This document shows, in pieces, positions 50,289 through 61,001 of a DNA stretch of 64,000 bases. Numbering within the stretch: the stretch's first letter is position 1; each line of letters starts with the position of its first letter. The notes beneath the pieces are model-generated. The model was not told the DNA's origin, ran no database searches, and saw only the letters and a list, made by a program, of their open reading frames with translations. The translations under genes and the position numbers were made by a program. This DNA is from Candidatus Blackburnbacteria bacterium (GTDB taxonomy: Bacteria > Patescibacteriota > Microgenomatia > UBA8517 > UBA10165), in assembly GCA_016183565.1 (NCBI GenBank), contig JACPEJ010000001.1, positions 422,479-486,478 on the forward strand, written 5' to 3'.

Positions 50289-50325
50289 TCTTGACAAAGA
50301 GCCTTGTAGTTTGTGCTATAGTGTA
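50289..50325 (+). promoter_or_regulatory. Promoter/RBS module 'cttgacaaagag(c/t)cttgtagttt(g/a)tg(c/a)tatagtgtaag ... aaagctctttgaaaaggagg', duplicated at 59858-59929
   Basis: There is a near-identical 70-nt block at both locations. Confidence 0.5.
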
Positions 50326-50366
50326 AGTGGAGGTTCAATTAAAGCTCTTTGAAAAGGAGGTTGAGC

Positions 50367-50810
50367 GTGGACGCGGGTGTAGCTCTCCTGGTTGTTGGTA
50401 TTCTCCTGCTTGTTGTGGGTGGGTATCAACTGTTACCTCAAGCGCCGTTCGCAGCATACAGGCTTGCTGCAGCGGAGGGGTTTCTTCTTCTACTCGTAGG
50501 TTTGGGTGTAGTGGTTCAACAAAGGAGGATGGCTGTTGTGACAAAGGAAGGCGCTACTGGTTGGCTGGTTGTTGGTGTCATCCTTGCCTTGGTGGGAGTC
50601 CTGGTGTTTATATCACAAGGAGGTGCGGTCGGTGAGTGCCAGACGTTTTTCGGCCAACTTGGGAGAGCGTTGAGTGCTGAGGTTCAACAGCGCTGCAGTA
50701 CAGCAAACCTCCTCCGGACTGTCGGCGGAGTTGTAGCTGTCGGCGGTTTCATCGTCACCCTTGTAGGCATTGTGTGGCTAGCAGCTTCCAGTTCATTAAA
50801 AAGCGCATGA
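50367..50810 (+). CDS. Small polytopic membrane protein with an internal repeat (GTG start). It equals a fusion of the two ORFs at 60458-60688 and 60695-60976.
   Basis: Four Gly/Val/Leu-rich TM segments; the halves align to 'MGAMLLAVGIILLVVGGYQL' and 'VVVTKEGATGWLVVG...' of the second copy. An RBS 'aaaggagg' lies 6 nt upstream of the GTG. Confidence 0.55.
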   Translation: MDAGVALLVVGILLLVVGGYQLLPQAPFAAYRLAAAEGFLLLLVGLGVVVQQRRMAVVTKEGATGWLVVGVILALVGVLVFISQGGAVGECQTFFGQLGRALSAEVQQRCSTANLLRTVGGVVAVGGFIVTLVGIVWLAASSSLKSA

Positions 50811-50833
50811 TGCCGATTGGGGTTTCGTGTTCT

Positions 50834-50987: not shown

Positions 50988-51335
50988 CTAAGTACGATTT
51001 ATCAAGCCAATTATAAGTATGAGGCTGGTGTAAATTACATATACCCAAAAGCTGAATTTCAAAAAGCTCCAGACAGCAGAAGCCTTTTTATTGATTAATC
51101 TTCTTATTAGGGTGAGAAGTATTGGAAGAGGTAGTAGAGCCAAGGCGAATGCCAAGCCTGCTTGGTATGGTTCCACTCCCACAGGAAACGCAAGACCTGC
51201 GATTATGGCCAGTGATAAATACGAAGCAATGATCAGGAGTAAGAAGAGTGCTAAGTTAATCAAGAATCTTACGAAGTTGTCGCTTAGCGTTGTGTTCATT
51301 TTTGTCAAGGGTATGGTATTTCCTAATATTATCAT
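50988..51335 (-). CDS. Hypothetical small membrane protein (3 TM)
   Basis: 115-aa ORF, mostly hydrophobic helices, on the same strand as and downstream of the ECF sigma gene. Confidence 0.35.
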   Translation of the reverse strand: MIILGNTIPLTKMNTTLSDNFVRFLINLALFLLLIIASYLSLAIIAGLAFPVGVEPYQAGLAFALALLPLPILLTLIRRLINKKASAVWSFLKFSFWVYVIYTSLILIIGLINRT

Positions 51336-51380
51336 GTTCTCGAAAGTATTGCAGAAAAAGTCGGATTGAAAAGAAGAATA

Positions 51381-51650
51381 CTTGACACAGAGTTACGTCA
51401 TCGCGTAAAACGAATCAGAATTTGTTTTCAACTGCGTATAAAATGTGTCGAGTGTTGGCGTGTTTGAGTGGCTACCTGTCTCGACTGGCCTGTCTCGTTT
51501 GGTGCAAGCCAAGGTGGACTCCCGAGGTGCAAACCTATTCCACCTCCCAGGTGGAAGATTGTAAGAGTGAGCTTGGTGGTGGGTCGTATACCAAAGGTGT
51601 CAAGCTAATCCACCTCTAAGGTGTCCAAAAGGTGTGCTTGATATACCTTC
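51381..51650. repeat. Cluster of compound REP-like palindromes: a 'cttgacacag...ctgtgtcaag' hairpin, 'gttggcgtg...cactcccgaggtgcaaac', 'attccacctcccaggtggaa', and 'ggtgtcaagctaatccacctctaaggtg'
   Basis: The same modules recur at 53807-53960, 57431-57550, 58664-58765, 59768-59812 and 61105-61152. Confidence 0.6.
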
Positions 51651-52168
51651 TTAAAAGCAAGTTTTGCCCGGTAGAGCCGTCCCTCTATTGCCTTCTCGCT
51701 AACACCCAAAAGCCTCGCTATTTTTTTTAGAGTGAGGTTTTCCCAATATCTGAGGTAAAGTAGTTGCTGCTTATTCGGTGGAAGCAAATTAAAGCATATT
51801 CTTACACTTGCCCTAAGTTCATCAAGTGCCAGTTTTTCCTCAAAAGATAAATCAGTCGTCCCAACTTGGGCAATTTTTTCCAAAACCGGAGCTACAACAA
51901 ACGAATTTTTGTTTACCTGACTTCTGTAATAATCAGCAGTTTTGTTTAATGCAATCCGGCACAACCAAGTAAAATAGCTGCTTTTATTTTTAAATGTATG
52001 CCAACCATGCCATGCCGAGGCCACAGTTTCTGCGAATACTTCCTCAGCAGCTGAGTAATCACCACCCATTTTTTTAAGCAAGAATTTCATTAACGGCAAA
52101 GCAAATTTTCTATACGCTGCTTCAAAATTTTCGTTCTCAAAAGTTTTGATCCGTGGGGTTTTGCTCAT
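51605..52168 (-). CDS. ECF (sigma-24 / RpoE-like) RNA polymerase sigma factor
   Basis: Region 2 'FAETVASAWHGWHTFKNKSSYFTWLCRIALNKTADYYR' and region 4 'LPPNKQQLLYLRYWENLTLKKIARLLGVSEKAIEGRLYRAKLAF'. Start trimmed to MSKTPRIK. Confidence 0.8.
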   Translation of the reverse strand: MSKTPRIKTFENENFEAAYRKFALPLMKFLLKKMGGDYSAAEEVFAETVASAWHGWHTFKNKSSYFTWLCRIALNKTADYYRSQVNKNSFVVAPVLEKIAQVGTTDLSFEEKLALDELRASVRICFNLLPPNKQQLLYLRYWENLTLKKIARLLGVSEKAIEGRLYRAKLAFKKVYQAHLLDTLEVD

Positions 52169-52208
52169 GTACACGACTAATAAAATAATGACAGACAACA
52201 AGTAGTAT

Positions 52209-52655
52209 ATGGTCATTTTAAGAAAAATTGCAATTACAAGTTCGGATACAGTCCCTGAATTTATTGACATAACAAATCGTGTTGAGGAAGAGGTGGGCAA
52301 AAGTGGCATAAAGATTGGGCAGGCTCTAATTTTTTCTCAGCATACGACTGCAGCAATTGTTATTCAAGAGCCAGAGCCAGGTGTACAAAAAGACTTGCAG
52401 GAATTACTTTCTAAAATAGCTCCTAAAAATGGGGACTATAAACATACGTTTGCTCCAGATCATATAAAAGACGGAATGCCAAATGCACACTCTCACTGCC
52501 AACATGCCTTACTTGGCGCATCGCAAACAATACCGATTGTTGATGGACAACTAATGCTTGGTCAGTACCAGAGGATATTTTTGGTAGAACTTGACCGCTC
52601 GCGGGTAAGATTTGTAATCATTCAGATCTTGGGAGATATGAAGCAGTCTTCTTAA
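52209..52655 (+). CDS. YjbQ/UPF0047-family protein (secondary thiamine-phosphate synthase-like)
   Basis: 'ITSSDTVPEFIDITNRV...ALIFSQHTTAAIVIQE...DGMPNAHSHCQHALLGASQTIPIVDGQLMLGQYQRIFLVELD' matches the UPF0047 pattern. Confidence 0.8.
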   Translation: MVILRKIAITSSDTVPEFIDITNRVEEEVGKSGIKIGQALIFSQHTTAAIVIQEPEPGVQKDLQELLSKIAPKNGDYKHTFAPDHIKDGMPNAHSHCQHALLGASQTIPIVDGQLMLGQYQRIFLVELDRSRVRFVIIQILGDMKQSS

Positions 52656-52670
52656 CAGACACAGCTAGAC

Positions 52671-52703
52671 ATAGCCTCGCAAGGTCTCACCTTGCGAGGC
52701 TAT
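52671..52703 (+). terminator. 14-bp perfect stem hairpin 'atagcctcgcaagg-tctca-ccttgcgaggctat'
   Basis: It lies immediately after the yjbQ stop. A related hairpin occurs at 57567-57594, with partial copies at 50921-50940 and 5370-5409. Confidence 0.5.
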
Positions 52704-52788
52704 GTGTATTAGTGTGTATTACAGTGTTAAATAGAATCACTCGGTCTTGACAGAGGGGTGGGGGTTGAATTGAATATTTGCGCTTCAA

Positions 52789-53014
52789 TGATATACTTCT
52801 ATCAGAAGACAGACGGGCTGTCTTTGAGTACTTTAACGTTAGTAGGAAGGGGGTGATGCCCAAAAGAGAGTTTGCCTCTTTTCCCTGCATTGGGCAGGAA
52901 GTGGTTGTGTTTGGTCTGAAAGATCCAGAGCTTGGAGAGAAGTCGACAGACTGGGCACAGCCAGAGGCCTTGGGTTAATAACCCTGTTCAACCTAGACTC
53001 AAGGAGTTAGGGAA
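52789..53014 (+). promoter_or_regulatory. Conserved ~225-nt 5' leader (copy 1). It starts with an extended -10 'tgatatact' and contains hairpins that vary compensatorily between copies.
   Basis: Paralogous leaders at 53985-54186, 55606-55845 and 57648-57875 share blocks 'ttgacgttag..ggaagg.ggtg.t.cccaa.agag...tctcttttcctgcattgggcaggaa.tgg...gtcgaca...gggttaa.aaccct'. Reading frames are not conserved between copies, so conservation is at the RNA level. Confidence 0.5.
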
Positions 53015-53293
53015 ATGTCTGACAGGGACAGTGATCGCTCGAGTGATCGGGACCGTGGTGGTGACCGGGACAGGGACCGTGGCCAGGAGAGAAGTGGAGA
53101 TATCTACGTGTCCGATATTACCGGTAACGCTGGTAACCAGGAAGGCACAACGTCATTTCGCGACGACGGGTCTTCCCACACCAGCGTACACGGAACAGGT
53201 GACAACTCCGGCTGGCATACCTCGTGGGGTACGTCGGATCGCCACAGCGACAGGCACCACACCAAGGACCACCAAGCCGACCGATACCTATAG
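53015..53293 (+). CDS. Small Asp/Arg/Ser/Gly-rich low-complexity protein (paralog family, copy 1)
   Basis: Protein begins 'MSDRDSDRSSDRDRGGDRDRDRG...'. RBS 'aaggag' lies 8 nt upstream. Differences from the 57876 paralog are mostly synonymous, arguing for real translation. Confidence 0.65.
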   Translation: MSDRDSDRSSDRDRGGDRDRDRGQERSGDIYVSDITGNAGNQEGTTSFRDDGSSHTSVHGTGDNSGWHTSWGTSDRHSDRHHTKDHQADRYL

Positions 53294-53319
53294 GTAGGTA
53301 GCTAGACCTGCAGATCCCA

Positions 53320-53365
53320 GAGGGAAGGAGAGCGTAACGCACCATCATTACAACCTCTCCTTCCC
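53320..53365 (+). other. Intergenic hairpin 'agggaaggagag...ctctccttcccc' (12-bp perfect stem) between the DR-rich gene and its helical partner gene
   Basis: Direct reading of the sequence. An analogous hairpin sits at 58204-58272 in the paralogous cassette. Confidence 0.45.
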
Positions 53366-53382
53366 CGACTTAATTTATTCTT

Positions 53383-53769
53383 ATGAAGTCAACCAGCACA
53401 AGAACACCTCTTGAAAATTTTTATTGGAAATACTTAAGAAGCGCTCTAAGGGATTCGAAAACCTTTTCATCTGAAGATGTCACTAAAATATTTTTGAGAG
53501 CCCTTAAAGACTATTTTGTTGGCAAAGCTGAACTTAAAGACGTTAGTATGATAGCAACACAACTATATTACGAAATCCGTGACCCCTTGAGCTTCGGTTA
53601 TCACCACCGTGAATTGGGCAATGCTCTAGAAACCGCAACAGAAATTGATTATGTGTACGGGCATATAAATGAAAGTGAAAAAGCCAGAGAGGAATATGAG
53701 GAGCAACTTGCAAGCTTGAGGGAATTTTATTCTAAGTACAAACACTTAATTGAAAAGGTTGGTAAGTAG
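53383..53769 (+). CDS. Hypothetical ~127-aa alpha-helical protein (paralog family A; partner of the DR-rich protein)
   Basis: Shares 'IFLRALKDYFVGKAELKDVSMIATQLYYEI' with 58284-58664 and 59223-59624. Start context is 'tatgaagtc'. Confidence 0.6.
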   Translation: MKSTSTRTPLENFYWKYLRSALRDSKTFSSEDVTKIFLRALKDYFVGKAELKDVSMIATQLYYEIRDPLSFGYHHRELGNALETATEIDYVYGHINESEKAREEYEEQLASLREFYSKYKHLIEKVGK

Positions 53770-53806
53770 AGGCATTAGCGGAAAGTAAGCAATTACCTTT
53801 TTCTTG

Positions 53807-53960
53807 CTTGATACAAAGTTACGTCATCGCGTAAAACAAATCAGAATTTGTTTTCAACTGCGTATAAAACTGTGTCAAGTGTTGGTGTGTTCGAGCGACC
53901 ACTCCCGAGGTGCCAACTTAATCCACCTCTAAGGTGTCCAGAAAAGGTGTCCAGAAATAT
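53807..53960. repeat. Compound REP-like cluster (same modules as 51381-51650)
   Basis: 'cttgatacaaagttacgtcatcgcgtaaaac...ctgtgtcaagtgttggtgtgttcgagcgaccactcccgaggtgccaacttaatccacctctaaggtgtccag'. Confidence 0.6.
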
Positions 53961-53984
53961 CGAATTACTTGGCCTTGACAGAAA

Positions 53985-54186
53985 TGATATACTTCTTTTA
54001 GAAGGCAGATGATCTGTCTTTGGGCACCTTGACGTTAGTCGGAAGGAGGTGGTACCCAAGAGAGATAGTGTCTCTTTTTCCTGCATTGGGCAGGAACTGG
54101 CTAGGTTTTAGGTTGAGGTCGACAACTTAGGGCTTAGTTGGTAATCCTAGGGTTAACAACCCTACTTGCCCCTTACGAGGTAGATA
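53985..54186 (+). promoter_or_regulatory. Conserved structured 5' leader (copy 2)
   Basis: See 52789-53014. Confidence 0.5.
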
Positions 54187-54495
54187 ATGCCTGATCGGGA
54201 TCGCTCCAGCGACCGCGGTGGTCGGGATTCTGACAGTGGGAGCCGTAGCGGCGATGTCTACTCCTCTGATTTTGCCGATCGTGGTGACTACGAGAGGCAG
54301 GATGGTGGAGTGAGTTTCAGCCGAGATGGTTCGTCAACCCACAACACCGCTGCGGCCAGCAATCCCAGCGAAGACGACAAGGGTGGCCGCTTTAGCTGGG
54401 ACACCGACAGGTACGGTAGAGTTTCCGACCCACACTTTACCGACCAGAACGCAGGGCGGCACGACCGAGACCGCCATCCATTCGGGGATAGGTAG
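54187..54495 (+). CDS. Small Asp/Arg/Ser/Gly-rich low-complexity protein (copy 2)
   Basis: 'MPDRDRSSDRGGRDSDSG...DKGGRFSWDTDRYG...RHDRDRHPFGDR' shares the KGG...(F/I)SWDxD motif with copies 4 and 5. Confidence 0.6.
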   Translation: MPDRDRSSDRGGRDSDSGSRSGDVYSSDFADRGDYERQDGGVSFSRDGSSTHNTAAASNPSEDDKGGRFSWDTDRYGRVSDPHFTDQNAGRHDRDRHPFGDR

Positions 54496-54617
54496 GTCAA
54501 GATCGCGCCGGATTACACTGTGTGATGGCTTGGGGGAGATTGGGATGTCCAATGTGGCCGTCGTACCGCCAAACGACACAAAAACCCAGTCTCCCCCTTC
54601 CACCAAAGATCACTTAG

Positions 54618-54637
54618 TTCACCTCTAAGGTGTCTGA
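54618..54637. repeat. REP-like core 'gttcacctctaaggtgtctg'
   Basis: Member of the dispersed family. Confidence 0.5.
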
Positions 54638-54638
54638 A

Positions 54639-55457
54639 TTAACTCCAAACAACATATCCGTGTGTGATTTTTACTTTATAGACTATGTCTTTAATTTGTT
54701 TTGTTAAAAATTCATATTCTAAATAATCATGACTTTTGCCTTCAATTTCCATGAAGGCGTATCCAACTCTTTTATTATTTTGTAAATATTGCTTGAGTTC
54801 ATCGGAGGAATAAACAGGATCGTTTTTATGTTGGATGTAAAGAGTATAAATGTTATATTTTTGGATCCAGTCATCCACAGCAAAATCATTTTTCCTTACC
54901 CCTCTAATTGGAGTTCCGACAAAAATACATTTGTCTGGTTTGATAGCCCCTTCAAATACTCCCCTCATAGTCAGTAAAGTGCCAGCAGACTTTGCAAAAA
55001 TAATATAGTTTTTCCTGTCTTTTACAAACTCGCTCAATTTATTTAATTCATAATCAAAATCTATTATCTCTTTTCCAGTTTCCCAATGTTTATAATAGTG
55101 AACATAAGTGTCTGGAAAAACTGGTTTTACTTTCTTTTCTATTTTCTCTATCCAACTTTTATTTTTTAGACTATTTCCTCCAAGTAAAATTATTGAAAAT
55201 CTCTTGTCTGGATATTTTGCCTTTTCGTATTTTTTGATAATTCTTTCTACATAATCTGTCTCAGGAACATTTGGAAACTTATCAACTATCTCAAGAGGCA
55301 TAAGATAACGATAATATTTATCACCTTCGTCAATAATAAGTCCCCACCCCCTACCAAAAACATTTACTTTCTTTCTAATTTGCAAAGCCCATTCATAAAC
55401 CTTTTTAAGAGGAACTCTTTTTAATTTTCCAATTTGACCAACTGTTAAAAGTTTCAT
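54639..55457 (-). CDS. Hypothetical protein, possible alpha/beta-hydrolase-like. The gene is AT-rich (Lys-rich) and may be cargo.
   Basis: 272 aa. 'IIFAKSAGTLLTMRG' (G/A-x-S-x-G-like) and a C-terminal 'KSHDY' suggest a serine hydrolase. Codon usage is much more AT-rich than the flanking DR-rich genes. Confidence 0.4.
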   Translation of the reverse strand: MKLLTVGQIGKLKRVPLKKVYEWALQIRKKVNVFGRGWGLIIDEGDKYYRYLMPLEIVDKFPNVPETDYVERIIKKYEKAKYPDKRFSIILLGGNSLKNKSWIEKIEKKVKPVFPDTYVHYYKHWETGKEIIDFDYELNKLSEFVKDRKNYIIFAKSAGTLLTMRGVFEGAIKPDKCIFVGTPIRGVRKNDFAVDDWIQKYNIYTLYIQHKNDPVYSSDELKQYLQNNKRVGYAFMEIEGKSHDYLEYEFLTKQIKDIVYKVKITHGYVVWS

Positions 55458-55550
55458 ATCGTCAAATAGGCAGGCGTCGGACTTGGACCGCCACTTTAAG
55501 AAAGGCTCTTTTTCACCTGCCTATTTGCATTTTAATACAAATTCACAAGT

Positions 55551-55600
55551 ATGCCAACCTAATCCACCTCTAAGGTGTCTAGACCTCTAAGGTGTCTAGA
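55551..55600. repeat. Tandem REP-like cores 'aatccacctctaaggtgtctagacctctaaggtgtctag'
   Basis: Direct reading of the sequence. Confidence 0.55.
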
Positions 55601-55605
55601 TAATA

Positions 55606-55845
55606 TGATATACTTCATTAGAGGCAAAAGACTCGCCTCTAGATAGCACTTTGACGTTGATTGGAAGGAGGTGATACCCAAGAGAAGATACTGTCTCTTT
55701 TTCCTGCATTGGGCAGGAACTGGCTAGGTTTTAAGTTGAGGTCGACAGCCTAGGGCTTAGTCGGAAGTTTTCGGGTTAACCGACCCTGTGACATTCTAAC
55801 CAACTTGCTTGGTTAGGCCTGTCGAGTGTCCCGTAAGGAGGACTA
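55606..55845 (+). promoter_or_regulatory. Conserved structured 5' leader (copy 3)
   Basis: See 52789-53014. It carries the compensatory hairpin 'agaggcaaaagactcgcctct'. Confidence 0.5.
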
Positions 55846-56064
55846 ATGGGACCACAAAAAGGCGGAGGTGAAGGTCGTACCGATTACATAGACGCTGGTG
55901 GGTACGTTCACGAAAGCCCGTCGGAAGCAATTTCGGCAAGCCTGGGATTCGAGTCGGTCTCCGGTACAGGAGCGGGTTGTAGCCAGAGCCCCGACAACGT
56001 TTCTGACGACGGCGACAGCGCTTCTGACAACGGCTCCAGCGACAGCGACGGCAACGACGAGTAG
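55846..56064 (+). CDS. Small highly acidic Ser/Asp/Gly-rich low-complexity protein (copy 3, divergent)
   Basis: 'MGPQKGGGEGRTDYIDAGGYVHE...SDDGDSASDNGSSDSDGNDE'. RBS 'aaggagg' lies 5 nt upstream. Confidence 0.5.
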   Translation: MGPQKGGGEGRTDYIDAGGYVHESPSEAISASLGFESVSGTGAGCSQSPDNVSDDGDSASDNGSSDSDGNDE

Positions 56065-56161
56065 TCTCGCATGGGATGGAGAAAAGGTGGGTCGCCCAAC
56101 CCCTCAAAGCGCAAGCTTACCTTTTCTCCTTTCTTCTTTTTGGGGTAAAATAAGCACAATA

Positions 56162-57373
56162 ATGTCGCCAAAAATTCTACAATCAATTTATTTGAAATAT
56201 CTCCCGCGCTATACATCCGAAGTAAAATCGTTTCAACCTGACAGGCTCCGAAGTTTGATTAAAAAGGCTGCAAAAGATGCTAGAGAAAACTACAAAAAAT
56301 TATCCCAGCCCAAGGCATGCTCTATTGGCCTCTATACCGAAATCTGGGTCGGACAAGAAGTTCGAAAAGACTTAGCAGTTAAAACTCTCAAAAAAATTTC
56401 CGTCGACAATCCTCCGCCAGAATTCAAAGCACAAATAAATTACTTTGCTATCATGCCGCATGAACGGCACGGTGAGCTTAGAAAGAAATTATATGATTCA
56501 CCAATAAACAAACGAGGAGATATTTGGGACAGCTTTAAACTTCCCTTGGATGAAATAGAAAAGCGATTTATACAAATGACAATCTCGCGTAATGAATTTG
56601 CAAAAAGAAAAGGTTATAGATCTTATATTGACATACTTTTAGACAGTCACAAAATACCCCAATCGGATTACAAGAAACTTATTGAGAAATCTGACAAGCT
56701 TATCGGATATTGCAACAGTCAACTACCCAAAATTGGCAAATTGCCAACTTGGTTTTATTCCAAATTTAATATACCTTGTTTTATGTGTCAATTGCCTGTG
56801 TTCCCGTTCAAGACATTGGATGAAACATTCAGCTACTGCGCCAAGAAACATAACGTCTTAGACAAATTCAAATACAAAATAAAGGTTAAGTTGGACGATG
56901 ACTCGAGGATGCTCTATAGAAAGGAAACTGATAGTTTTGAAATAGCCATCAATAAAAATAACAATATTCGTCACCAATCAATTGAGCTTATACACGAACT
57001 TGCCCATGTAATAAATTATCTTCGTGATTTTAAAAAAGAAATTGACCCCCTTGTAGGAGGAGCACGCCTGCACGAAAAAGAAGCATTAGCTGTTGAGCTT
57101 TCTATATTAAAGGAACTATCACCAGAGTTGTTTTATACACACTTTACCGATGCTCTCCTTACTATTCGCCGAACCTTGTTTGAAATTGAACTCTATACTA
57201 ACCCAAAACAAAATTTAAGCAAACTCTACGCCGAAACACTTAATCGTTGTTTTAAAAAAGCAAATCAAAAGGAAAACCCAACCTATTTACTCGACGAGCG
57301 TATTGTGTTGCGCCCTCTCTCCACCTTGCCTCACGCAGTTGCCTATGCAACGTATCTTGACAAAAAGATTTAA
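56162..57373 (+). CDS. Hypothetical protein with an HExxH zinc-metallopeptidase-like motif. The gene is AT-rich and Lys-rich (cargo).
   Basis: 'LIHELAHVINYL' HExxH motif. Start trimmed to MSPKILQS at 56162; the longer GC-rich N-terminal extension overlaps the acidic small ORF in another frame and is probably not translated. Confidence 0.5.
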   Translation: MSPKILQSIYLKYLPRYTSEVKSFQPDRLRSLIKKAAKDARENYKKLSQPKACSIGLYTEIWVGQEVRKDLAVKTLKKISVDNPPPEFKAQINYFAIMPHERHGELRKKLYDSPINKRGDIWDSFKLPLDEIEKRFIQMTISRNEFAKRKGYRSYIDILLDSHKIPQSDYKKLIEKSDKLIGYCNSQLPKIGKLPTWFYSKFNIPCFMCQLPVFPFKTLDETFSYCAKKHNVLDKFKYKIKVKLDDDSRMLYRKETDSFEIAINKNNNIRHQSIELIHELAHVINYLRDFKKEIDPLVGGARLHEKEALAVELSILKELSPELFYTHFTDALLTIRRTLFEIELYTNPKQNLSKLYAETLNRCFKKANQKENPTYLLDERIVLRPLSTLPHAVAYATYLDKKI

Positions 57374-57430
57374 TACATCTAGAGGATTATACCATTTTGG
57401 CTATTGTCTAGGCTAATCATGAAGTCGAAT

Positions 57431-57550
57431 TTGACACAAAGTTATGCGATGACATAGAACTGTGTCAAGTGTTGGCGTGTTCGAGCGGCCACTCCCGAGG
57501 TGCAAACGTATTCCACCTCCCAGGTGGAAGATTCACAGGTGGAAGATTTT
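57431..57550. repeat. Compound REP-like cluster
   Basis: 'tttgacacaaagttatgcgatgacatagaactgtgtcaagtgttggcgtgttcgagcggccactcccgaggtgcaaacgtattccacctcccaggtggaagattcacaggtggaagatt'. Confidence 0.6.
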
Positions 57551-57647
57551 AACAAGTGGTCGTTAAGCTCTTTACGCTTGCAAGGTCTCACCTTGCGAGG
57601 CTAGTTCCTACTTGGTTTCTACTTCTCAAAAAGTGTTTGCACTCCGA

Positions 57648-57875
57648 TGATATACTACATTAGAGGTAAATGCTTGCCTCTAGATAGCACCTTGACGTTA
57701 GCCGGAAGGAGGTGATACCCAAGAGAAGATACTGTCTCTTTTTCCTGCATTGGGCAGGAAGTGGTTGTGTTTGGTCTGAAAGCTCCAGTGGTTGGAGAGA
57801 AGTCGACAGTCTCGGGCTTAAGTTAGAGGCCTTGGGTTAACAACCCTGTTCAACCTAGACTCAAGGAGTTGGGAA
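57648..57875 (+). promoter_or_regulatory. Conserved structured 5' leader (copy 4). Its 3' half is nearly identical to copy 1.
   Basis: See 52789-53014. Confidence 0.5.
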
Positions 57876-58175
57876 ATGTCTGACAGGGACAGTGATCGCT
57901 CCAGCGGTCGTGATCGTGATGGCGACCGTGACCGGGACCGGGACTCCGGCAGCCGGGACCGTGGTGGTGATCTTTACAGCTCCGACTTTGGCGATGATGT
58001 CAAGGGCGGTAACCTTGACCTAGACAAAGGCGGCAAAGGTAAGGATCATGCTAGTGTCTTTGGCGACGACCGCCATTTCTCTTGGGACATCGATACTAAG
58101 ACTGGCGAGGTCTCAAGGGTACATGGTTGGGAGCATCGAGACAAGGACACCGGTCGCGAGCGTAGTCGCTGGTAA
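57876..58175 (+). CDS. Small Asp/Arg/Ser/Gly-rich low-complexity protein (copy 4)
   Basis: 'MSDRDSDRSSGRDRDGDRDRDRDSGSRDRGGD...KGGNLDLDKGGKGKD...RHFSWDIDTKTG'. The N-terminus matches copy 1 with mostly synonymous nucleotide differences. Confidence 0.65.
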   Translation: MSDRDSDRSSGRDRDGDRDRDRDSGSRDRGGDLYSSDFGDDVKGGNLDLDKGGKGKDHASVFGDDRHFSWDIDTKTGEVSRVHGWEHRDKDTGRERSRW

Positions 58176-58283
58176 CCAGGCTAACAACTGAATATGTGAC
58201 TAAGGAGGGGGAGTACTCCATATGGAGATAAAGCGTATGGTCACTACGCAAGGACACAAGTCCTACCCCTCCACCTTTAAAGT

Positions 58284-58664
58284 ATGAAGTCGCTAAATTC
58301 AACAATGTCAAAGTTTGATAGATATTTAAGTGAGACTGTGTTTTCTTCAAAAAACGAGCTGACACAAAAGCAAACAAGAGAGATACTTCTTAGGGCATTA
58401 AAAGACTTTTTCGAAGGCAAGCTCGCTTTAGAGGAACTGGCAAGTATTGCTACTGATATATATTACACTCTGAACAGTCCTTTCAGAATTACAACAGAGT
58501 GGGAACACAGTTTGGGTAATATTCTCGAGAATCTAACCGAAGTTGACTATTATAAAGAGGAAGGAAGAAAAGACAAATATGCTAGGGATATGCATGAGAC
58601 TGTAATGAAAGAACTTGAGGAGTACTACGAAAAGAACAAATGGCGGATTGAGAAGAAAGAATAG
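58284..58664 (+). CDS. Hypothetical ~126-aa alpha-helical protein (paralog family A)
   Basis: 'ILLRALKDFFEGKLALEELASIATDIYYTL'; paralog of 53383-53769. Confidence 0.6.
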   Translation: MKSLNSTMSKFDRYLSETVFSSKNELTQKQTREILLRALKDFFEGKLALEELASIATDIYYTLNSPFRITTEWEHSLGNILENLTEVDYYKEEGRKDKYARDMHETVMKELEEYYEKNKWRIEKKE

Positions 58665-58765
58665 TTGACACAGAGTTACGTTATCGCGTAAAACTATGTC
58701 AAGTGTTGGTGTGTTCGAGCGGCCACTCCCGAGGTGCCAACGTATTCCACCTCCCAGGTGGAATT
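58664..58765. repeat. Compound REP-like cluster
   Basis: 'ttgacacagagttacgttatcgcgtaaaactatgtcaagtgttggtgtgttcgagcggccactcccgaggtgccaacgtattccacctcccaggtggaa'. Confidence 0.6.
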
Positions 58766-58879
58766 GTAGCACATGCTTGACATGACGGAAGGCGACGGCG
58801 TAAAATAGAGCCGGGGAATAAGCGAAAGCAAAGGGAGTAGTACTTTAACACAAAAATCAGCGGCAACTAGGAGGAGCAA

Positions 58880-59155
58880 GTGCCTAGGGATAGCGGACCC
58901 GCTGAACCGGCTGACCTTTTAAGCGATGGCGGGTCAAGCTCGCGGGATAAAGGTGGCGGTATCACTCACGAAACGATCTACGATAGAGAGCGTGGTACCC
59001 ACATCAGCTGGGATCACGACAAGGACGGCGACTACATCTCGGGTTCTGGTCACACTCGCGACGACCGAGCGAAGAGTACCATCTCGGACTGGGATCAAGG
59101 TCGTGATCGAGATCGGGATCGGGATAGAGGAAAGGACAAAGATTACAGGGGATAA
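58880..59155 (+). CDS. Small Asp/Arg/Gly-rich low-complexity protein (copy 5, GTG start, no conserved leader)
   Basis: '...SSRDKGGGITHETIYDRERGTHISWDHDKDGDY...DWDQGRDRDRDRDRGKDKDYRG'. Upstream there is an 'aggagg' RBS and a TTGACA-18 nt-TAAAAT promoter at ~58789-58819. Confidence 0.5.
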   Translation: MPRDSGPAEPADLLSDGGSSSRDKGGGITHETIYDRERGTHISWDHDKDGDYISGSGHTRDDRAKSTISDWDQGRDRDRDRDRGKDKDYRG

Positions 59156-59222
59156 AGGCAAAGGTTGGGGATGGTTCTAGACCTCTGAACAAATGAAAGC
59201 AGAAAGGGTTTCCCTTTAAAAA

Positions 59223-59624
59223 CTACTCTTCCCTTTCTGCCCTACCTTTTGTTTTGTCTTCGTAGAACTCGAGTACGTCTTTGAGGAAACTTAGGAAAAT
59301 AGTATCTAACTTTGGTCTTAAAACCCGTCTGACATAGAAATCCATCTCTTCTCCAGCAATTAAGATATCAAGGAATTCCTTACTGAAACTTTTCTCTTTT
59401 TCTATTGCGTTCCACCACAGCTTTCCTGCAACAAAACTTAAGTCGTCAAGAGATATGGCCTCGTCCATAAAATCTCGTACTGCTTTGAGGAATATTCCCT
59501 CAGTTTGTTTTTCATCTACGTCATCGATTGATACTACGCCAACCGAGTGGAGATACTCTGAAAGCCTTTGTTCTATAAACTCTGTCTTTCTCATTCGTTT
59601 TTCTGGGTGTTGATCCTCTTTCAT
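59223..59624 (-). CDS. Hypothetical ~133-aa alpha-helical protein (paralog family A, convergent orientation)
   Basis: 'IFLKAVRDFMDEAISLDDLSFVAGKLWWNAI' aligns with the (I/L)(F/L)LRALKD(Y/F)F core of the other two paralogs. Confidence 0.55.
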   Translation of the reverse strand: MKEDQHPEKRMRKTEFIEQRLSEYLHSVGVVSIDDVDEKQTEGIFLKAVRDFMDEAISLDDLSFVAGKLWWNAIEKEKSFSKEFLDILIAGEEMDFYVRRVLRPKLDTIFLSFLKDVLEFYEDKTKGRAEREE

Positions 59625-59767
59625 TAGCCAATTATACCATTGTTAAGTCGAAGCTGGCAGTCCTTGTACAGTATCAGAGTTTCGTTGACGTTAGGTAAGT
59701 TGGACTGTGACTTGTTTGCAAGTATCCGGTCTCCAATTATTTGCTGCGGTGTTCTGCCCTTCATTCC

Positions 59768-59812
59768 ATTATACCGGAGGTGCCAACGTATTTCACCTCC
59801 CAGGTGGAAAAT
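59768..59812. repeat. REP-like element 'ccggaggtgccaacgtatttcacctcccaggtggaaaatc'
   Basis: Same family. Confidence 0.55.
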
Positions 59813-59857
59813 CATTGCTTTTGTATGGCTTCTGGTTGGGTTATCAAAATTTTCCTT

Positions 59858-59929
59858 CTTGACAAAGAGTCTTGTAGTTTATGATATAGTGTAAGAGAAG
59901 GTCTAATTAAAGCTCTTTGAAAAGGAGGT
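59858..59929 (+). promoter_or_regulatory. Second copy of the promoter/RBS module seen at 50289-50360
   Basis: Near-identical sequence. Confidence 0.5.
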
Positions 59930-59934
59930 GGGCG

Positions 59935-60429
59935 ATGGCTGGCAATGTACAGGGGCTTTGTTTGTCTCGGCGGCGGTTGGGGTTACTGGCAATAGTTGGT
60001 TCTCCAATCTTTGTTGGTGCATGTGCGTGGGGTGACTCGCCGGAAAAAGCTGCGAAGGAGTGGCTTAGTGCTATCTTCAATTCCAGCTTGGCAGTTGATA
60101 AGAAGGTTGGTGAGCGGACTTGTAGAAGTCAGCAGGAAACAGTGTTATCAATTGTCAAGGTTGGTACATCTGGCTTAGTTGAGCGCTACACTGGTGGCAG
60201 AGTTAAGGTGGCGCAAGTAACCACAGTAAGCGTGGGCATCTACAGCTTCTTCTTTGAGACTCTTGCTGTCGTGGGTGATGTTGCCGAGGTACGTGCTCGC
60301 GGGACGTTTGGTTTTACTACGCGTAGTTCTTCGCAAACTATTGAGGTTGACGAGGTATGGCGGATGATCCGCGAAGGAGGGATATGGAAGTGGTGTGGAC
60401 TAGCTTCGTCGGCCTCTAAGCTGCGTTGA
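59935..60429 (+). CDS. Putative lipoprotein
   Basis: Signal peptide with lipobox-like 'LAIVGSPIFVGAC', preceded by RBS 'aaaggagg'. It is present only in the second copy of the duplicated module. Confidence 0.5.
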   Translation: MAGNVQGLCLSRRRLGLLAIVGSPIFVGACAWGDSPEKAAKEWLSAIFNSSLAVDKKVGERTCRSQQETVLSIVKVGTSGLVERYTGGRVKVAQVTTVSVGIYSFFFETLAVVGDVAEVRARGTFGFTTRSSSQTIEVDEVWRMIREGGIWKWCGLASSASKLR

Positions 60430-60457
60430 CTTGGCTGCGTAGTGGAAGGAGGAGCTG

Positions 60458-60688
60458 ATGGGAGCTATGCTTTTGGCTGTCGGGATTATCCTCTTGGTTG
60501 TTGGGGGATACCAACTGATGTCCATTGGTTCCCAGTACCCGGCTTTTGCAACGCCTGCTCAGGTTCTAGGGGAAGTAGAGGTGCAGCTAAACCTATGGCG
60601 GATTGTTGCTCTGGGTGGGCTTGTTTCGATAGCCGTGGGGCTTGTCATGTTGCTCCGTCGGCCGTCCAAGCCCACTTCACTATCCTAG
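60458..60688 (+). CDS. Small 2-TM membrane protein (homologous to the N-terminal half of 50367-50810)
   Basis: 'MGAMLLAVGIILLVVGGYQLM...' with RBS 'ggaaggagg'. Confidence 0.5.
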   Translation: MGAMLLAVGIILLVVGGYQLMSIGSQYPAFATPAQVLGEVEVQLNLWRIVALGGLVSIAVGLVMLLRRPSKPTSLS

Positions 60689-60694
60689 AGGAGG

Positions 60695-60976
60695 ATGGTT
60701 GTCGTGACAAAGGAAGGTGCTACTGGTTGGCTGGTGGTTGGTGCCGTCCTTGCCTTGGTAGGTGTTCTGGTATTTCTGGCACAAGGGAGTACGGTGGGTG
60801 AGTGCCAAACGTTTCTAGGGCAGTTGGGTCGAGCTCTGAGTCCAGAGGTTCAGCAGCGCTGTGGTACAGCGAACCTTCTCCGGACTGTCGGCGGAGTTGT
60901 AGCTGTTGGTGGGGTTATTGTAGCTCTAGTTGGCATTGTGCGGCTGGCAGCTTCTAGTACGTCAGAGAAAACGTGA
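60695..60976 (+). CDS. Small 2-TM membrane protein (homologous to the C-terminal half of 50367-50810)
   Basis: 'MVVVTKEGATGWLVVGAVLALVGVLVF...GECQTFLGQLGRALSPEVQQRCGTANLLRTVGGVVAVGG' is about 90% identical to the first copy. Confidence 0.5.
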   Translation: MVVVTKEGATGWLVVGAVLALVGVLVFLAQGSTVGECQTFLGQLGRALSPEVQQRCGTANLLRTVGGVVAVGGVIVALVGIVRLAASSTSEKT

Positions 60977-61001
60977 TCGCCCGACTCGGTCTCTCATCTC
61001 T

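What the first reader, a model, noticed from the sequence alone, without database searches (positions are those of the whole stretch)
52789..59624. Tandem cassettes encode paralogous Asp/Arg/Ser/Gly-rich disordered small proteins; most are behind a conserved structured leader and three have ~127-aa helical partners
Five + strand genes (53015, 54187, 55846, 57876, 58880) encode 72-102-aa low-complexity proteins rich in D, R, S and G, e.g. 'MSDRDSDRSSDRDRGGDRDRDRG'. They share a recurrent 'KGG...(F/I)SWDxD' motif. Copies 1 and 4 differ mostly by synonymous substitutions (tcg/tcc, agt/agc, cgg/cgt, agg/cgg), which indicates purifying selection on the protein. Four of the five sit behind a ~225-nt conserved leader. 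Three are followed, or convergently faced, by a second paralog family of ~127-aa helical proteins that share '(I/L)(F/L)LRALKD(Y/F)F.GK..L......IAT..YY' (53383, 58284, 59223). The loci are separated by compound REP-like palindromes and interleaved with AT-rich cargo genes. I do not recognise either protein family. The KGG motif gives a weak resemblance to YciG/YmdF-type general stress proteins. Possible roles are hydrophilin-like stress protectants, metal or nucleic-acid binders, or antitoxin-like partners of the helical proteins. This looks like an undescribed, amplifying two-gene system.
Basis: partly seen in the sequence, partly recalled or inferred. Interest (0 to 1): 0.85.

Follow-up and report, generated by a model that had tools for sequence, protein, structure and literature searches.

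The report
Conserved small-protein/helical-partner gene pair in CPR
This stretch of a Candidatus Blackburnbacteria (candidate phyla radiation) genome carries several old copies of an undescribed gene pair, a small folded His/Asp/Trp-rich protein with charged tails next to a helical-bundle partner, and four genes here share a private promoter and structured leader; the function is unknown.

Summary
The ORFs, the leader and the helical paralogs are real, but the description needs correcting. The window is Candidatus Blackburnbacteria (CPR).

- **Small proteins.** Four of the five (53015, 54187, 57876, 58880) form one family. The fifth (55846) belongs to another family that always precedes a ~400-aa HExxH protein.
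- **Fold.** The family is not simply disordered. 28 homologs share a ~55-residue core with invariant His, Ser and His and a near-invariant Trp. AlphaFold2 predicts a five-strand beta core (pLDDT 85-93). The Asp/Arg tails are lineage-specific additions.
- **Pairing.** In all eight other distinct genomic contexts with enough flank, a member of the ~125-aa helical family (332 clusters, no Pfam or NCBIfam match) lies directly adjacent, convergent or in tandem. The two families co-diversify (Mantel r 0.76).
- **Age.** The paralogs are old (dS saturated, pN well below pS), so this is not a currently amplifying element.
- **Leader.** The ~215-nt leader is absent from Rfam and from every other locus and collection searched. 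It diverges less than adjacent synonymous sites and also precedes the unrelated fifth gene.
- **Not supported.** KGG/YciG membership, a toxin-antitoxin system, a phage origin and a defence system.

Best reading: a co-regulated pair of interacting proteins, possibly stress- or metal-related. Function is inferred, not shown.

The parts
52770..53014 (+). Leader copy 1. Promoter TTGAAT-16-TGaTATACT (-10 at 52792-52797), then a ~215-nt structured 5' UTR up to the ATG of small gene c1.
   Evidence: Fold z -2.9.
53015..53293 (+). Small protein c1 (92 aa). Divergent member of the H-x-SW family (HTSWGTS) with an N-terminal Asp/Arg tail and a His-rich C-terminus. P0182 is the retrieved homolog that resembles it most.
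   Evidence: (E 5e-15).
53383..53769 (+). Helical partner h1 (128 aa), in tandem 90 nt downstream of c1, with a hairpin between them.
   Evidence: E 5e-36.
53988..54186 (+). Leader copy 2 (TGATATACT -10 at 53988-53993, then the 5' UTR).
   Evidence: Fold z -4.3.
54187..54495 (+). Small protein c2 (102 aa, '...RFSWDTD..G.VSDPHFTDQ...DRHPFG' type). It has no helical partner here. Its relative in L010 has one.
   Evidence: E 3e-23.
55609..55845 (+). Leader copy 3, in front of an unrelated gene. It is a mosaic: the 5' half is closest to copy 4 and the 3' half to copy 2.
   Evidence: (D5, D8).
55846..56064 (+). c3 (72 aa). An acidic small protein of a different family ('FE.xSGTGAGCSQSxDNV'), not a paralog of the other four.
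   Evidence: no hit to the small-family profile. (68% to the L013 65-aa ORF, E 4e-19; 37% to the L005 77-aa ORF).
56162..57373 (+). 403-aa HExxH (HELAH) protein, a putative metallopeptidase. It is the conserved downstream partner of c3-type genes.
   Evidence: weak Peptidase_M78, E 0.007; PHROG metalloprotease, E 8e-4; 37-41% to L005, L013 and L011 proteins, E 1e-72 to 1e-97.
57651..57875 (+). Leader copy 4 (-10 at 57651-57656, then the 5' UTR). Its last ~50 nt are 98% identical to copy 1.
57876..58175 (+). Small protein c4 (99 aa; 'DRHFSWDIDTKTGEVSRVHG...W' type with an Asp/Arg N-tail).
   Evidence: (E 6e-25).
58284..58664 (+). Helical partner h2 (126 aa; = HYU80_02485). AlphaFold2 predicts a five-helix bundle.
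   Evidence: (pLDDT 76, pTM 0.73).
58777..58879 (+). Separate promoter (TTGACA-18-TAAAAT) and short ~75-nt 5' UTR of c5. Unrelated to the shared leader, and conserved only with the close relative L002.
58880..59155 (+). Small protein c5 (91 aa; = HYU80_02490), of the most widespread subtype. Predicted beta core at residues ~17-70, with an Asp/Arg C-tail.
   Evidence: (E 3e-27).
59223..59624 (-). Helical partner h3 (133 aa), convergent with c5. The same convergent pair is found in L002-L005 and L011-L014.
   Evidence: E 5e-38.

Best explanation
**Shown**
- The region holds three full copies and one half copy of a gene pair found in several Patescibacteria/CPR genomes (named sources: Blackburnbacteria, Shapirobacteria, an unclassified Patescibacteria genome).
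- Gene A encodes a ~70-aa cytoplasmic protein. Its ~55-residue core is predicted to fold into a five-strand antiparallel beta meander. The core carries two invariant His, an invariant Ser and a near-invariant Trp (H...H-x-SW-D...G...H).
- In this genome gene A has gained Asp/Arg-rich polyampholyte tails, and these tails are themselves under purifying selection.
- Gene B encodes a ~125-aa five-helix bundle from a larger undescribed family. Gene B always sits next to gene A, either convergent or in tandem with its own signals, and has diversified in step with it.
- Four neighbouring genes (three A genes and the unrelated c3 gene) share one extended -10 promoter and a ~215-nt multi-hairpin 5' UTR. 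In other genomes the c3/HExxH-protease pair lies within ~3 kb of the A/B pair.
- The leader diverges less than adjacent synonymous sites and is a mosaic between copies.

**Inferred**
- A and B form a specific protein complex. B probably acts as a dimer, because fused two-domain and tandem versions exist.
- The shared leader makes these genes a small regulon with coordinated, probably high or conditional, expression. It may act through mRNA stabilisation by the 5'-terminal hairpin and/or a structure-dependent switch.
- The His/Asp-rich, extremely hydrophilic A proteins act as stress-related or metal-binding protectants. B holds, loads or regulates them.
For: - **Family and organism:**
- **Conserved core:** (H30, S43 and H58 invariant, W44 and G50 at >=90% across 28 sequences).
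- **Fold of A:** (core blocks at pLDDT 85-93, all five models 71-77).
- **Fold of B:**
- **Size of the B family:** (332 clusters at E<=1e-3, 111 at <=1e-10).
- **Adjacency:**, summarised by hmmsearch. All 8 other distinct contexts with enough flank have B next to A.
- **Co-diversification:** (Mantel r 0.755, permutation p 1e-4; c4/h2 group with L006 and L009, c5/h3 with L002, L005, L011 and L013).
- **Selection:** (pN 0.17-0.38 against pS 0.67-0.95 for A; similar for B; tails).
- **Dimer hint:** (P0025, P0079, P0121 and P0154 have two domains; L015 has two tandem copies).
- **Leader:** (4 pairs with compensatory changes, mainly in the 5'-terminal hairpin; z -1.2 to -4.3; 76-89% identity against background-level coding identity), 92 against 79 (pS 0.55 beside a leader segment 98% identical).
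- **Link to c3/HExxH:**
- **Hydrophilicity, Gly and His content:**
Against: - No experiment or complex prediction shows that A binds B. Mirror-tree correlation is partly expected from shared species history.
- L001 has a solo, truncated B, and window copy c2 has no B, so the pairing is not obligatory.
- The B family appears larger than the A family, though A was only searched with the word-limited tool, so B may also work without A.
- No metal-binding or stress family matches. The two invariant His could be structural.
- The leader was found only in this genome. With four related copies, covariation is weak evidence, and recent gene conversion rather than function could explain part of its conservation.
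- There are no expression data.
Confidence: 0.5

Rival explanations
1. Stand-alone hydrophilin or general-stress proteins (YciG/YmdF/KGG-like or LEA-like). The small proteins protect the cytoplasm by themselves, and the helical neighbour is functionally unrelated.
For: All four proteins, and their tail-less homologs, meet the operational hydrophilin criteria: Gly 11-19% and GRAVY -1.2 to -1.8. They have strong promoter-like sites and long 5' UTRs.
Against: - No KGG or other stress-protein family hit even at E<=1.
- The KGG motif is not conserved in the family.
- The core is predicted to be folded.
- The helical gene is adjacent in all 8 other distinct contexts and co-diversifies.
Confidence: 0.15
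2. The helical protein is a dedicated regulator of the adjacent small-protein gene (transcriptional, or an anti-sigma or adaptor type), not a structural partner.
For: The genes are adjacent but independently transcribed, in variable orientation, which is typical of regulator-target pairs. An ECF sigma gene lies just upstream in the window (51605-52309).
Against: - No helix-turn-helix or other DNA-binding domain is detected.
- Leader-driven copy c2 lacks any adjacent helical gene.
Confidence: 0.1
3. Effector/immunity-like pair. The small beta-meander protein resembles a YD/Rhs-type repeat fragment, and the helical bundle resembles an immunity protein.
For: - The c5 type contains a 'YDRERG' motif.
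Against: - No RHS_repeat Pfam hit.
- There is no toxin domain, no signal peptide and no secretion genes nearby.
- The small protein is more conserved than the helical one, the opposite of typical toxin/immunity arms races.
- No PADLOC hit for the pair.
Confidence: 0.08
4. Type II toxin-antitoxin module, with the small protein as a disordered antitoxin and the helical protein as the toxin (or the reverse).
For: It is a two-gene unit of small proteins, present in multiple copies in one genome, with a charged low-complexity partner.
Against: - The arrangement is convergent in the window's c5/h3 pair and in L002-L005 and L011-L014, so the genes are not co-transcribed.
- Tandem pairs are separated by 90-170 nt containing hairpins, and by a clear terminator in L010.
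- No toxin or antitoxin domain is found in Pfam, NCBIfam or PADLOC.
- The pair sits in a conserved chromosomal neighbourhood near mreB.
- It is absent from the phage, plasmid and viral collections tried.
Confidence: 0.05
5. Spurious ORFs in recently duplicated non-coding repeats.
For: Low-complexity GA/CG-rich sequence with overlapping ORFs in other frames. NCBI annotated only some of the copies.
Against: - pN is well below pS in every comparison, with the excess of differences at third codon positions.
- 27 homologs in other Patescibacteria share invariant residues.
- The structure prediction is confident.
- The DR tail itself shows 8 synonymous against 2 nonsynonymous changes.
Confidence: 0.02

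Closest known systems
Hydrophilins / LEA-like and bacterial small general-stress proteins (YciG/YmdF KGG-repeat family, PF10685)
   Same: Small, extremely hydrophilic, Gly-rich, charged cytoplasmic proteins (Gly 13-15%, GRAVY about -1.7). Several copies per genome and strong promoter-like sites.
   Different: No sequence match to KGG or any stress family. The KGG motif is not conserved. The core is predicted to be a folded beta meander with invariant His/Ser/Trp. The protein is tied to a helical partner gene.
YD/Rhs-repeat beta-hairpin proteins (teneurin, Rhs shells) and OspA-type single-layer beta sheets
   Same: The predicted fold is a short antiparallel beta meander, and the best structural neighbours are of this kind. 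The c5 type has a 'YD..G' motif.
Four-helix-bundle immunity or binding proteins (e.g. colicin D immunity protein, 1tfk_B)
   Different: No sequence similarity. The score is in the range of generic helical bundles. No cognate toxin is present.
Type II toxin-antitoxin operons
   Same: Two small adjacent genes present in multiple paralogous copies.
   Different: Mostly convergent or separated by terminator-like hairpins, with no autoregulated bicistronic operon. No known toxin or antitoxin domains.
Structured cis-regulatory leaders (riboswitches, attenuators, stabilising 5' stem-loops)
   Same: A ~215-nt multi-hairpin 5' UTR immediately after a strong promoter. It is shared by functionally linked genes and diverges less than neighbouring synonymous sites, with compensatory changes in the 5'-terminal hairpin.
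   Different: No Rfam family at E<=5. It is not found in any other genome or metagenome searched. No ligand or mechanism can be assigned.

Membership tests
KGG-repeat general stress proteins (YciG/YmdF, Pfam PF10685) | Match to the KGG repeat profile | tested here: not met
   No Pfam family for any of the five small proteins at E<=1. None in NCBIfam. KGG is not a conserved column in the 28-sequence alignment.
Hydrophilins (operational definition from my own knowledge: Gly >6% and hydrophilicity index >1) | Gly content above 6% and mean hydropathy below -1 | tested here: met
   c1, c2, c4, c5: Gly 12.7-15.2%, GRAVY -1.70 to -1.79. Tail-less homologs: Gly 11-19%, GRAVY -1.17 to -1.38.
Hydrophilins | Accumulation under water deficit or osmotic stress, and protection of other proteins | not testable with these tools
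   No expression or biochemical data are available.
   AlphaFold2 with a 28-sequence alignment gives five strands at residues 17-70 of c5, with 10-residue block means of pLDDT 85-93. Only the termini are low, at 53-60.
Type II toxin-antitoxin systems | Co-transcribed, closely spaced or overlapping two-gene operon | tested here: not met
   Convergent in the window (c5/h3) and in L002-L005 and L011-L014. Tandem pairs are 90-170 nt apart with hairpins or a terminator between them.
Type II toxin-antitoxin systems | Recognisable toxin or antitoxin domain | tested here: not met
   No Pfam, NCBIfam or PADLOC match for either partner. There is one sub-threshold JAB hit for c2, E 0.001.
Rhs/YD-repeat proteins | RHS_repeat sequence profile, or strong structural match to a YD shell | tested here: not met
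Colicin D immunity-like helical immunity proteins | Sequence or strong fold similarity, plus an adjacent nuclease toxin | tested here: inconclusive
Any Rfam RNA family (for the leader) | Covariance-model match | tested here: not met
   No match at gathering thresholds over the whole window, and none at E<=5 over 51000-61000.
Riboswitch-like conserved cis-regulatory RNA | Recurrence in different genomes with covariation that supports a common structure | tested here: inconclusive
   Only four copies exist, all in this window. There are none in L001-L017, and pattern scans of metagenome and genome collections gave only chance hits. Among the four copies, 4 of 40 predicted pairs show compensatory changes.
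Phage or mobile-element cargo | Homologs in phage, viral or plasmid collections, or phage protein families | tested here: not met
   No PHROG hit for either family. No relatives in IMG/VR. No tblastn match in the phage collection (helical h2) or the plasmid collection (small-family member P0166). The chromosomal neighbourhood is conserved.

The most novel reading that the evidence does not exclude
The A/B pair, the c3 peptide and the HExxH protease may together form a previously unknown functional system specific to this group of Patescibacteria, for example a processed or metal-loaded small-protein system used in stress survival or in the episymbiotic lifestyle. In Blackburnbacteria it would be controlled by a new class of structured RNA leader that senses a signal (a riboswitch- or attenuator-like element absent from Rfam).
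Probability: 0.15. Interest if true: 0.75.

Novelty: categorically new. Interest (0 to 1): 0.5.

Why it matters
CPR/Patescibacteria genomes are tiny, and a large share of their genes have no known function. This work defines two such families concretely. One has a conserved folded core with invariant residues, the other is its helical partner, and the two show a strict neighbourhood rule and co-diversification. There is also a link to a second conserved pair (an acidic peptide plus an HExxH protease). Together these turn 'hypothetical proteins' into a testable hypothesis of an interacting, co-regulated module.

The private leader diverges less than adjacent synonymous sites and is shared with a non-homologous gene, so it is a candidate new cis-regulatory RNA. 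'Categorically new' here means only that nothing known matches. It does not mean that a new mechanism has been demonstrated.

Tried and rejected
- **Curated families.** Pfam, NCBIfam, PADLOC and PHROGs scans of all ten proteins in the region gave no family for either partner. Scanning 81 diverse helical-family members individually against Pfam gave only scattered single sub-threshold hits.
- **RNA families.** Rfam at gathering thresholds and at E<=5 found nothing. No tRNA in the window.
- **Leader outside this window.** nhmmer on L001-L017 found nothing. A gapped pattern scan of metagenome contigs gave 14 hits and a P4 pattern scan of GTDB genomes gave 2. All matched only the pattern itself and are chance.
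- **Other 5' UTRs.** A search for a common 5' UTR among small-protein genes of other genomes found none, apart from window c5 against its close relative L002.
- **Exact look-ups.** Look-ups of h1 and of P0001 found no contig.
- **Cluster names.** Names for ten helical representatives were only 'hypothetical protein'.
- **Fusions.** No fusion of a small domain to a helical domain was found.
- **Leader peptide.** A conserved upstream ORF in the leader is ruled out by indels that shift the frame between copies.
- **Terminator switch.** An antiterminator/terminator switch around hairpin P4 was considered. The alternative pairing GGAAGGAG:CUUUUUCC exists but is not mutually exclusive with P4 in all copies, so I do not claim it.
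- **Literature.** A search for Blackburnbacteria found nothing relevant.

Full report
**Source and context.** The helical ORF 58284-58664 is identical to HYU80_02485, and the small ORF 58880-59155 is identical to HYU80_02490, both of a Candidatus Blackburnbacteria MAG with a 686-kb contig. Upstream lies the end of a cell-division cluster (FtsW, MurG, FtsA). After it come a small membrane protein, an ECF-type sigma factor on the minus strand and a UPF0047/YjbQ gene. The strong positive GC skew of the first 51 kb collapses over 51-60 kb. The window contains no tRNA and no Rfam match.

**The observation.** All the ORFs exist as described.
- The ~215-225-nt leader is real. Four copies precede 53015, 54187, 55846 and 57876. 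They share an extended -10 promoter (TGATATACT) and a series of hairpins.
- The three ~127-aa proteins are genuine paralogs.
- The synonymous-substitution pattern between copies 1 and 4 holds. Their first 22 codons differ by 8 synonymous and 2 nonsynonymous changes (pS 0.55, pN 0.04, Fisher p 2e-5).
- The REP-like palindrome occurs 13 times in the window, against 0.05 expected.

**Four paralogs, not five.** A profile of the family core hits 53015, 54187, 57876 and 58880 (E 5e-15 to 3e-27) but not 55846. ORF 55846 (c3) is 68% identical over 47 residues (E 4e-19) to a 65-aa ORF in L013 and 37% identical to a 77-aa ORF in L005. In all three genomes that ORF sits directly upstream of a ~400-aa protein with an HExxH motif, and these large proteins are 34-38% identical to one another (E 1e-81 to 1e-97). 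c3 therefore belongs to a second conserved pair.

**The small family is folded, not simply disordered.**
- A core-only profile recovers 27 proteins. Where a source names them they come from Patescibacteria, for example Candidatus Shapirobacteria and the complete 786-kb genome AP024680. Most are only 68-76 aa and lack Asp/Arg tails.
- Across 28 sequences, H30, S43 and H58 (c5 numbering) are invariant, and W44 and G50 are conserved in at least 90%.
- AlphaFold2 with this alignment predicts five beta strands between residues 17 and 70, with block pLDDT of 85-93. Only the termini are low.
- The Asp/Arg-rich tails are additions mainly seen in this lineage. They are nevertheless under purifying selection.
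- The proteins meet the operational hydrophilin criteria. They do not match the KGG/YciG family or any other curated family or any PDB sequence.

**The paralogs are old.** Between window copies, pS is 0.67-0.81 (saturated) and pN is 0.35-0.37. Against homologs in other loci, pN is 0.17-0.38 and pS is 0.71-0.95. Each window copy has retrieved homologs that align best with it:
- c1 with P0182.
- c2 with P0010, P0176 and P0177.
- c4 with P0014, P0016, P0017 and P0170.
- c5 with P0011-P0015 and P0166-P0175.

This is a family with at least four long-standing subtypes, not a currently amplifying element.

**The pairing is real and conserved.** Every locus reached through a small-family protein, and long enough to judge, has a helical-family gene immediately next to it (profile confirmation).
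- Convergent: L002/L003/L004, L005, L011/L012 and L013/L014.
- Tandem: L006/L007, L009, L010 and L015-L017.

That gives eight distinct contexts, plus three pairs in the window. The exceptions are window copy c2, whose L010 relative does have a partner, and a solo truncated helical gene in L001. Pairwise similarities of the small and helical proteins correlate across ten pairs (Mantel r 0.755, permutation p 1e-4). The window's three pairs fall into matching subgroups, so the two genes duplicated as a unit. The small protein is the better conserved of the two. In L005, L011 and L013 the pair lies beside mreB and within about 3 kb of the c3/HExxH pair.

**What the arrangement excludes.** The commonest orientation is convergent. 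Tandem pairs are separated by 90-170 nt containing hairpins, and L010 has a clear terminator between the two genes. The genes are therefore generally not co-transcribed, which argues against a classical toxin-antitoxin operon. No defence, phage or plasmid link was found.

**The leader.**
- The four copies are 76-89% identical. In the same kind of alignment the downstream coding regions score at background level: about 69% is obtained even against the unrelated c3.
- The copies are mosaics. The 5' core of copy 3 resembles copy 4 and its 3' half resembles copy 2. The last 50 nt of copies 1 and 4 are 98% identical.
- Immediately after that 98% segment, synonymous sites of c1 and c4 differ at pS 0.55. 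The leader is therefore either constrained as a sequence or was exchanged more recently than the coding region. Its presence before a non-homologous gene shows that it has moved independently of the coding region at least once.
- Each copy folds into a 5'-terminal hairpin, a CACCUU/AAGGUG helix, two short conserved hairpins (one being UUCCUGC-AUUGG-GCAGGAA), a variable long hairpin and a GGGUU-AAC-AACCC hairpin. Fold z-scores are -1.2 to -4.3. Four predicted pairs show compensatory changes, mostly in the 5' hairpin.
- No conserved upstream ORF exists, because frames differ between copies.
- The leader has no Rfam match. It was not found in any related locus or in pattern scans of metagenome and genome collections, where all hits were chance. 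Copy c5 uses a different, short 5' UTR shared only with its close relative L002.
- The leader is therefore private to this lineage as far as the data go, and its mechanism cannot be settled by comparison.

**Most likely mechanism.**
- Shown: a conserved, co-diversifying pair of a folded His/Asp/Trp-rich mini-protein and a helical bundle, plus a shared promoter-leader that links three of these genes with the c3/HExxH pair.
- Inferred, about 0.5 for the physical and regulatory association and about 0.25 for the specific role: the two proteins bind each other, with the helical partner probably acting as a dimer. The leader creates a small co-regulated set with stabilised or conditionally expressed mRNAs. 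The very hydrophilic, His/Asp-rich proteins act as stress- or metal-related protectants that the partner holds or regulates.
- Rivals, in order: stand-alone hydrophilins (0.15), helical protein as regulator (0.10), effector/immunity-like pair (0.08), toxin-antitoxin (0.05), spurious ORFs (0.02).

**Novelty and score.** Neither protein family nor the leader belongs to any curated family that I could test, and the gene-pair architecture fits no known two-gene system. I therefore rate it 'categorically new', meaning only that nothing known matches. Uncharacterised conserved pairs are common in CPR genomes, no mechanism is demonstrated, and the leader lacks comparative support.

Noticed in passing
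window 59140-59180: c5 ends '...GKDKDYRG*'. The next frame reads 'DKGKGWGWF*', which is the conserved C-terminus of orthologs P0011-P0013. A 1-nt indel in the G-run near 59146-59154 is implied, either an assembly error or a real frameshift that removes a conserved aromatic tail.
   Followed up: partly
window 55846-57373; L005 4095-5801; L013 3005-4561; L011 6514-7311: A second conserved pair: a ~65-77-aa acidic protein with a 'FE..SG.GAGCSQSxDNV' motif containing a single Cys, directly upstream of a ~400-aa HExxH (HELAH) protein with no solid family match. It lies within ~3 kb of the small-protein/helical pair in other genomes, and here it shares their leader. It could be a peptide with its protease.
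   Followed up: partly
window 50289-50811 and 59857-60977: The whole 9.6-kb block (ECF sigma, YjbQ and the cassettes) is bracketed by partial duplicates. A promoter/start segment is 90% identical between the two sides. The C-terminal half of the 153-aa membrane protein (50349-50810) closely matches the 93-aa ORF 60695-60976; the underlying DNA repeat (50523-50811 vs 60689-60977) is 80% identical.
   Followed up: partly
window 1-51000 versus 51000-60000: GC skew is strongly positive (0.15-0.5) and nearly all genes are on the + strand up to ~51 kb. The skew then drops to about 0 across the cassette region and gene orientation becomes mixed.
   Followed up: no
window, 13 sites (e.g. 51540, 53923, 55564, 57513, 58747, 59793, 61123): The REP-like palindrome CCACCTC(TA/CC)AGGTG, often within a longer ~100-nt repeat (family D4 at 53841, 57431 and 58665), marks gene ends. 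Nine of the 13 copies lie between 51.5 and 61.2 kb.
   Followed up: partly
window 53015-59624: Strong compositional contrast. The small-protein genes are 56-60% GC, while their helical partners, the 403-aa gene and the 272-aa gene are 30-39% GC, in a window whose 1-kb blocks mostly run 38-46% GC.
   Followed up: partly
window 54639-55457 (-): A 272-aa, 30% GC gene with no family or PDB match occupies the position where the L010 relative of c2 has its helical partner. It is possibly a foreign insertion that displaced the partner.
   Followed up: partly
L001 9195-10270 (FWPV01000087.1): In another CPR genome a helical-family gene is solo and truncated (89 aa, stop inside the conserved 'TEVD' region). 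It lies next to a YjbQ/UPF0047 gene and a tRNA. YjbQ is also the gene just upstream of the first cassette in the window.
   Followed up: partly
window 52846-52856, 54041-54051, 55662-55672, 57703-57713: Inside every leader a perfect Shine-Dalgarno-like GGAAGG(A/G)GGTG is paired with an upstream CACCTT-type segment. No conserved ORF follows it.
   Followed up: partly
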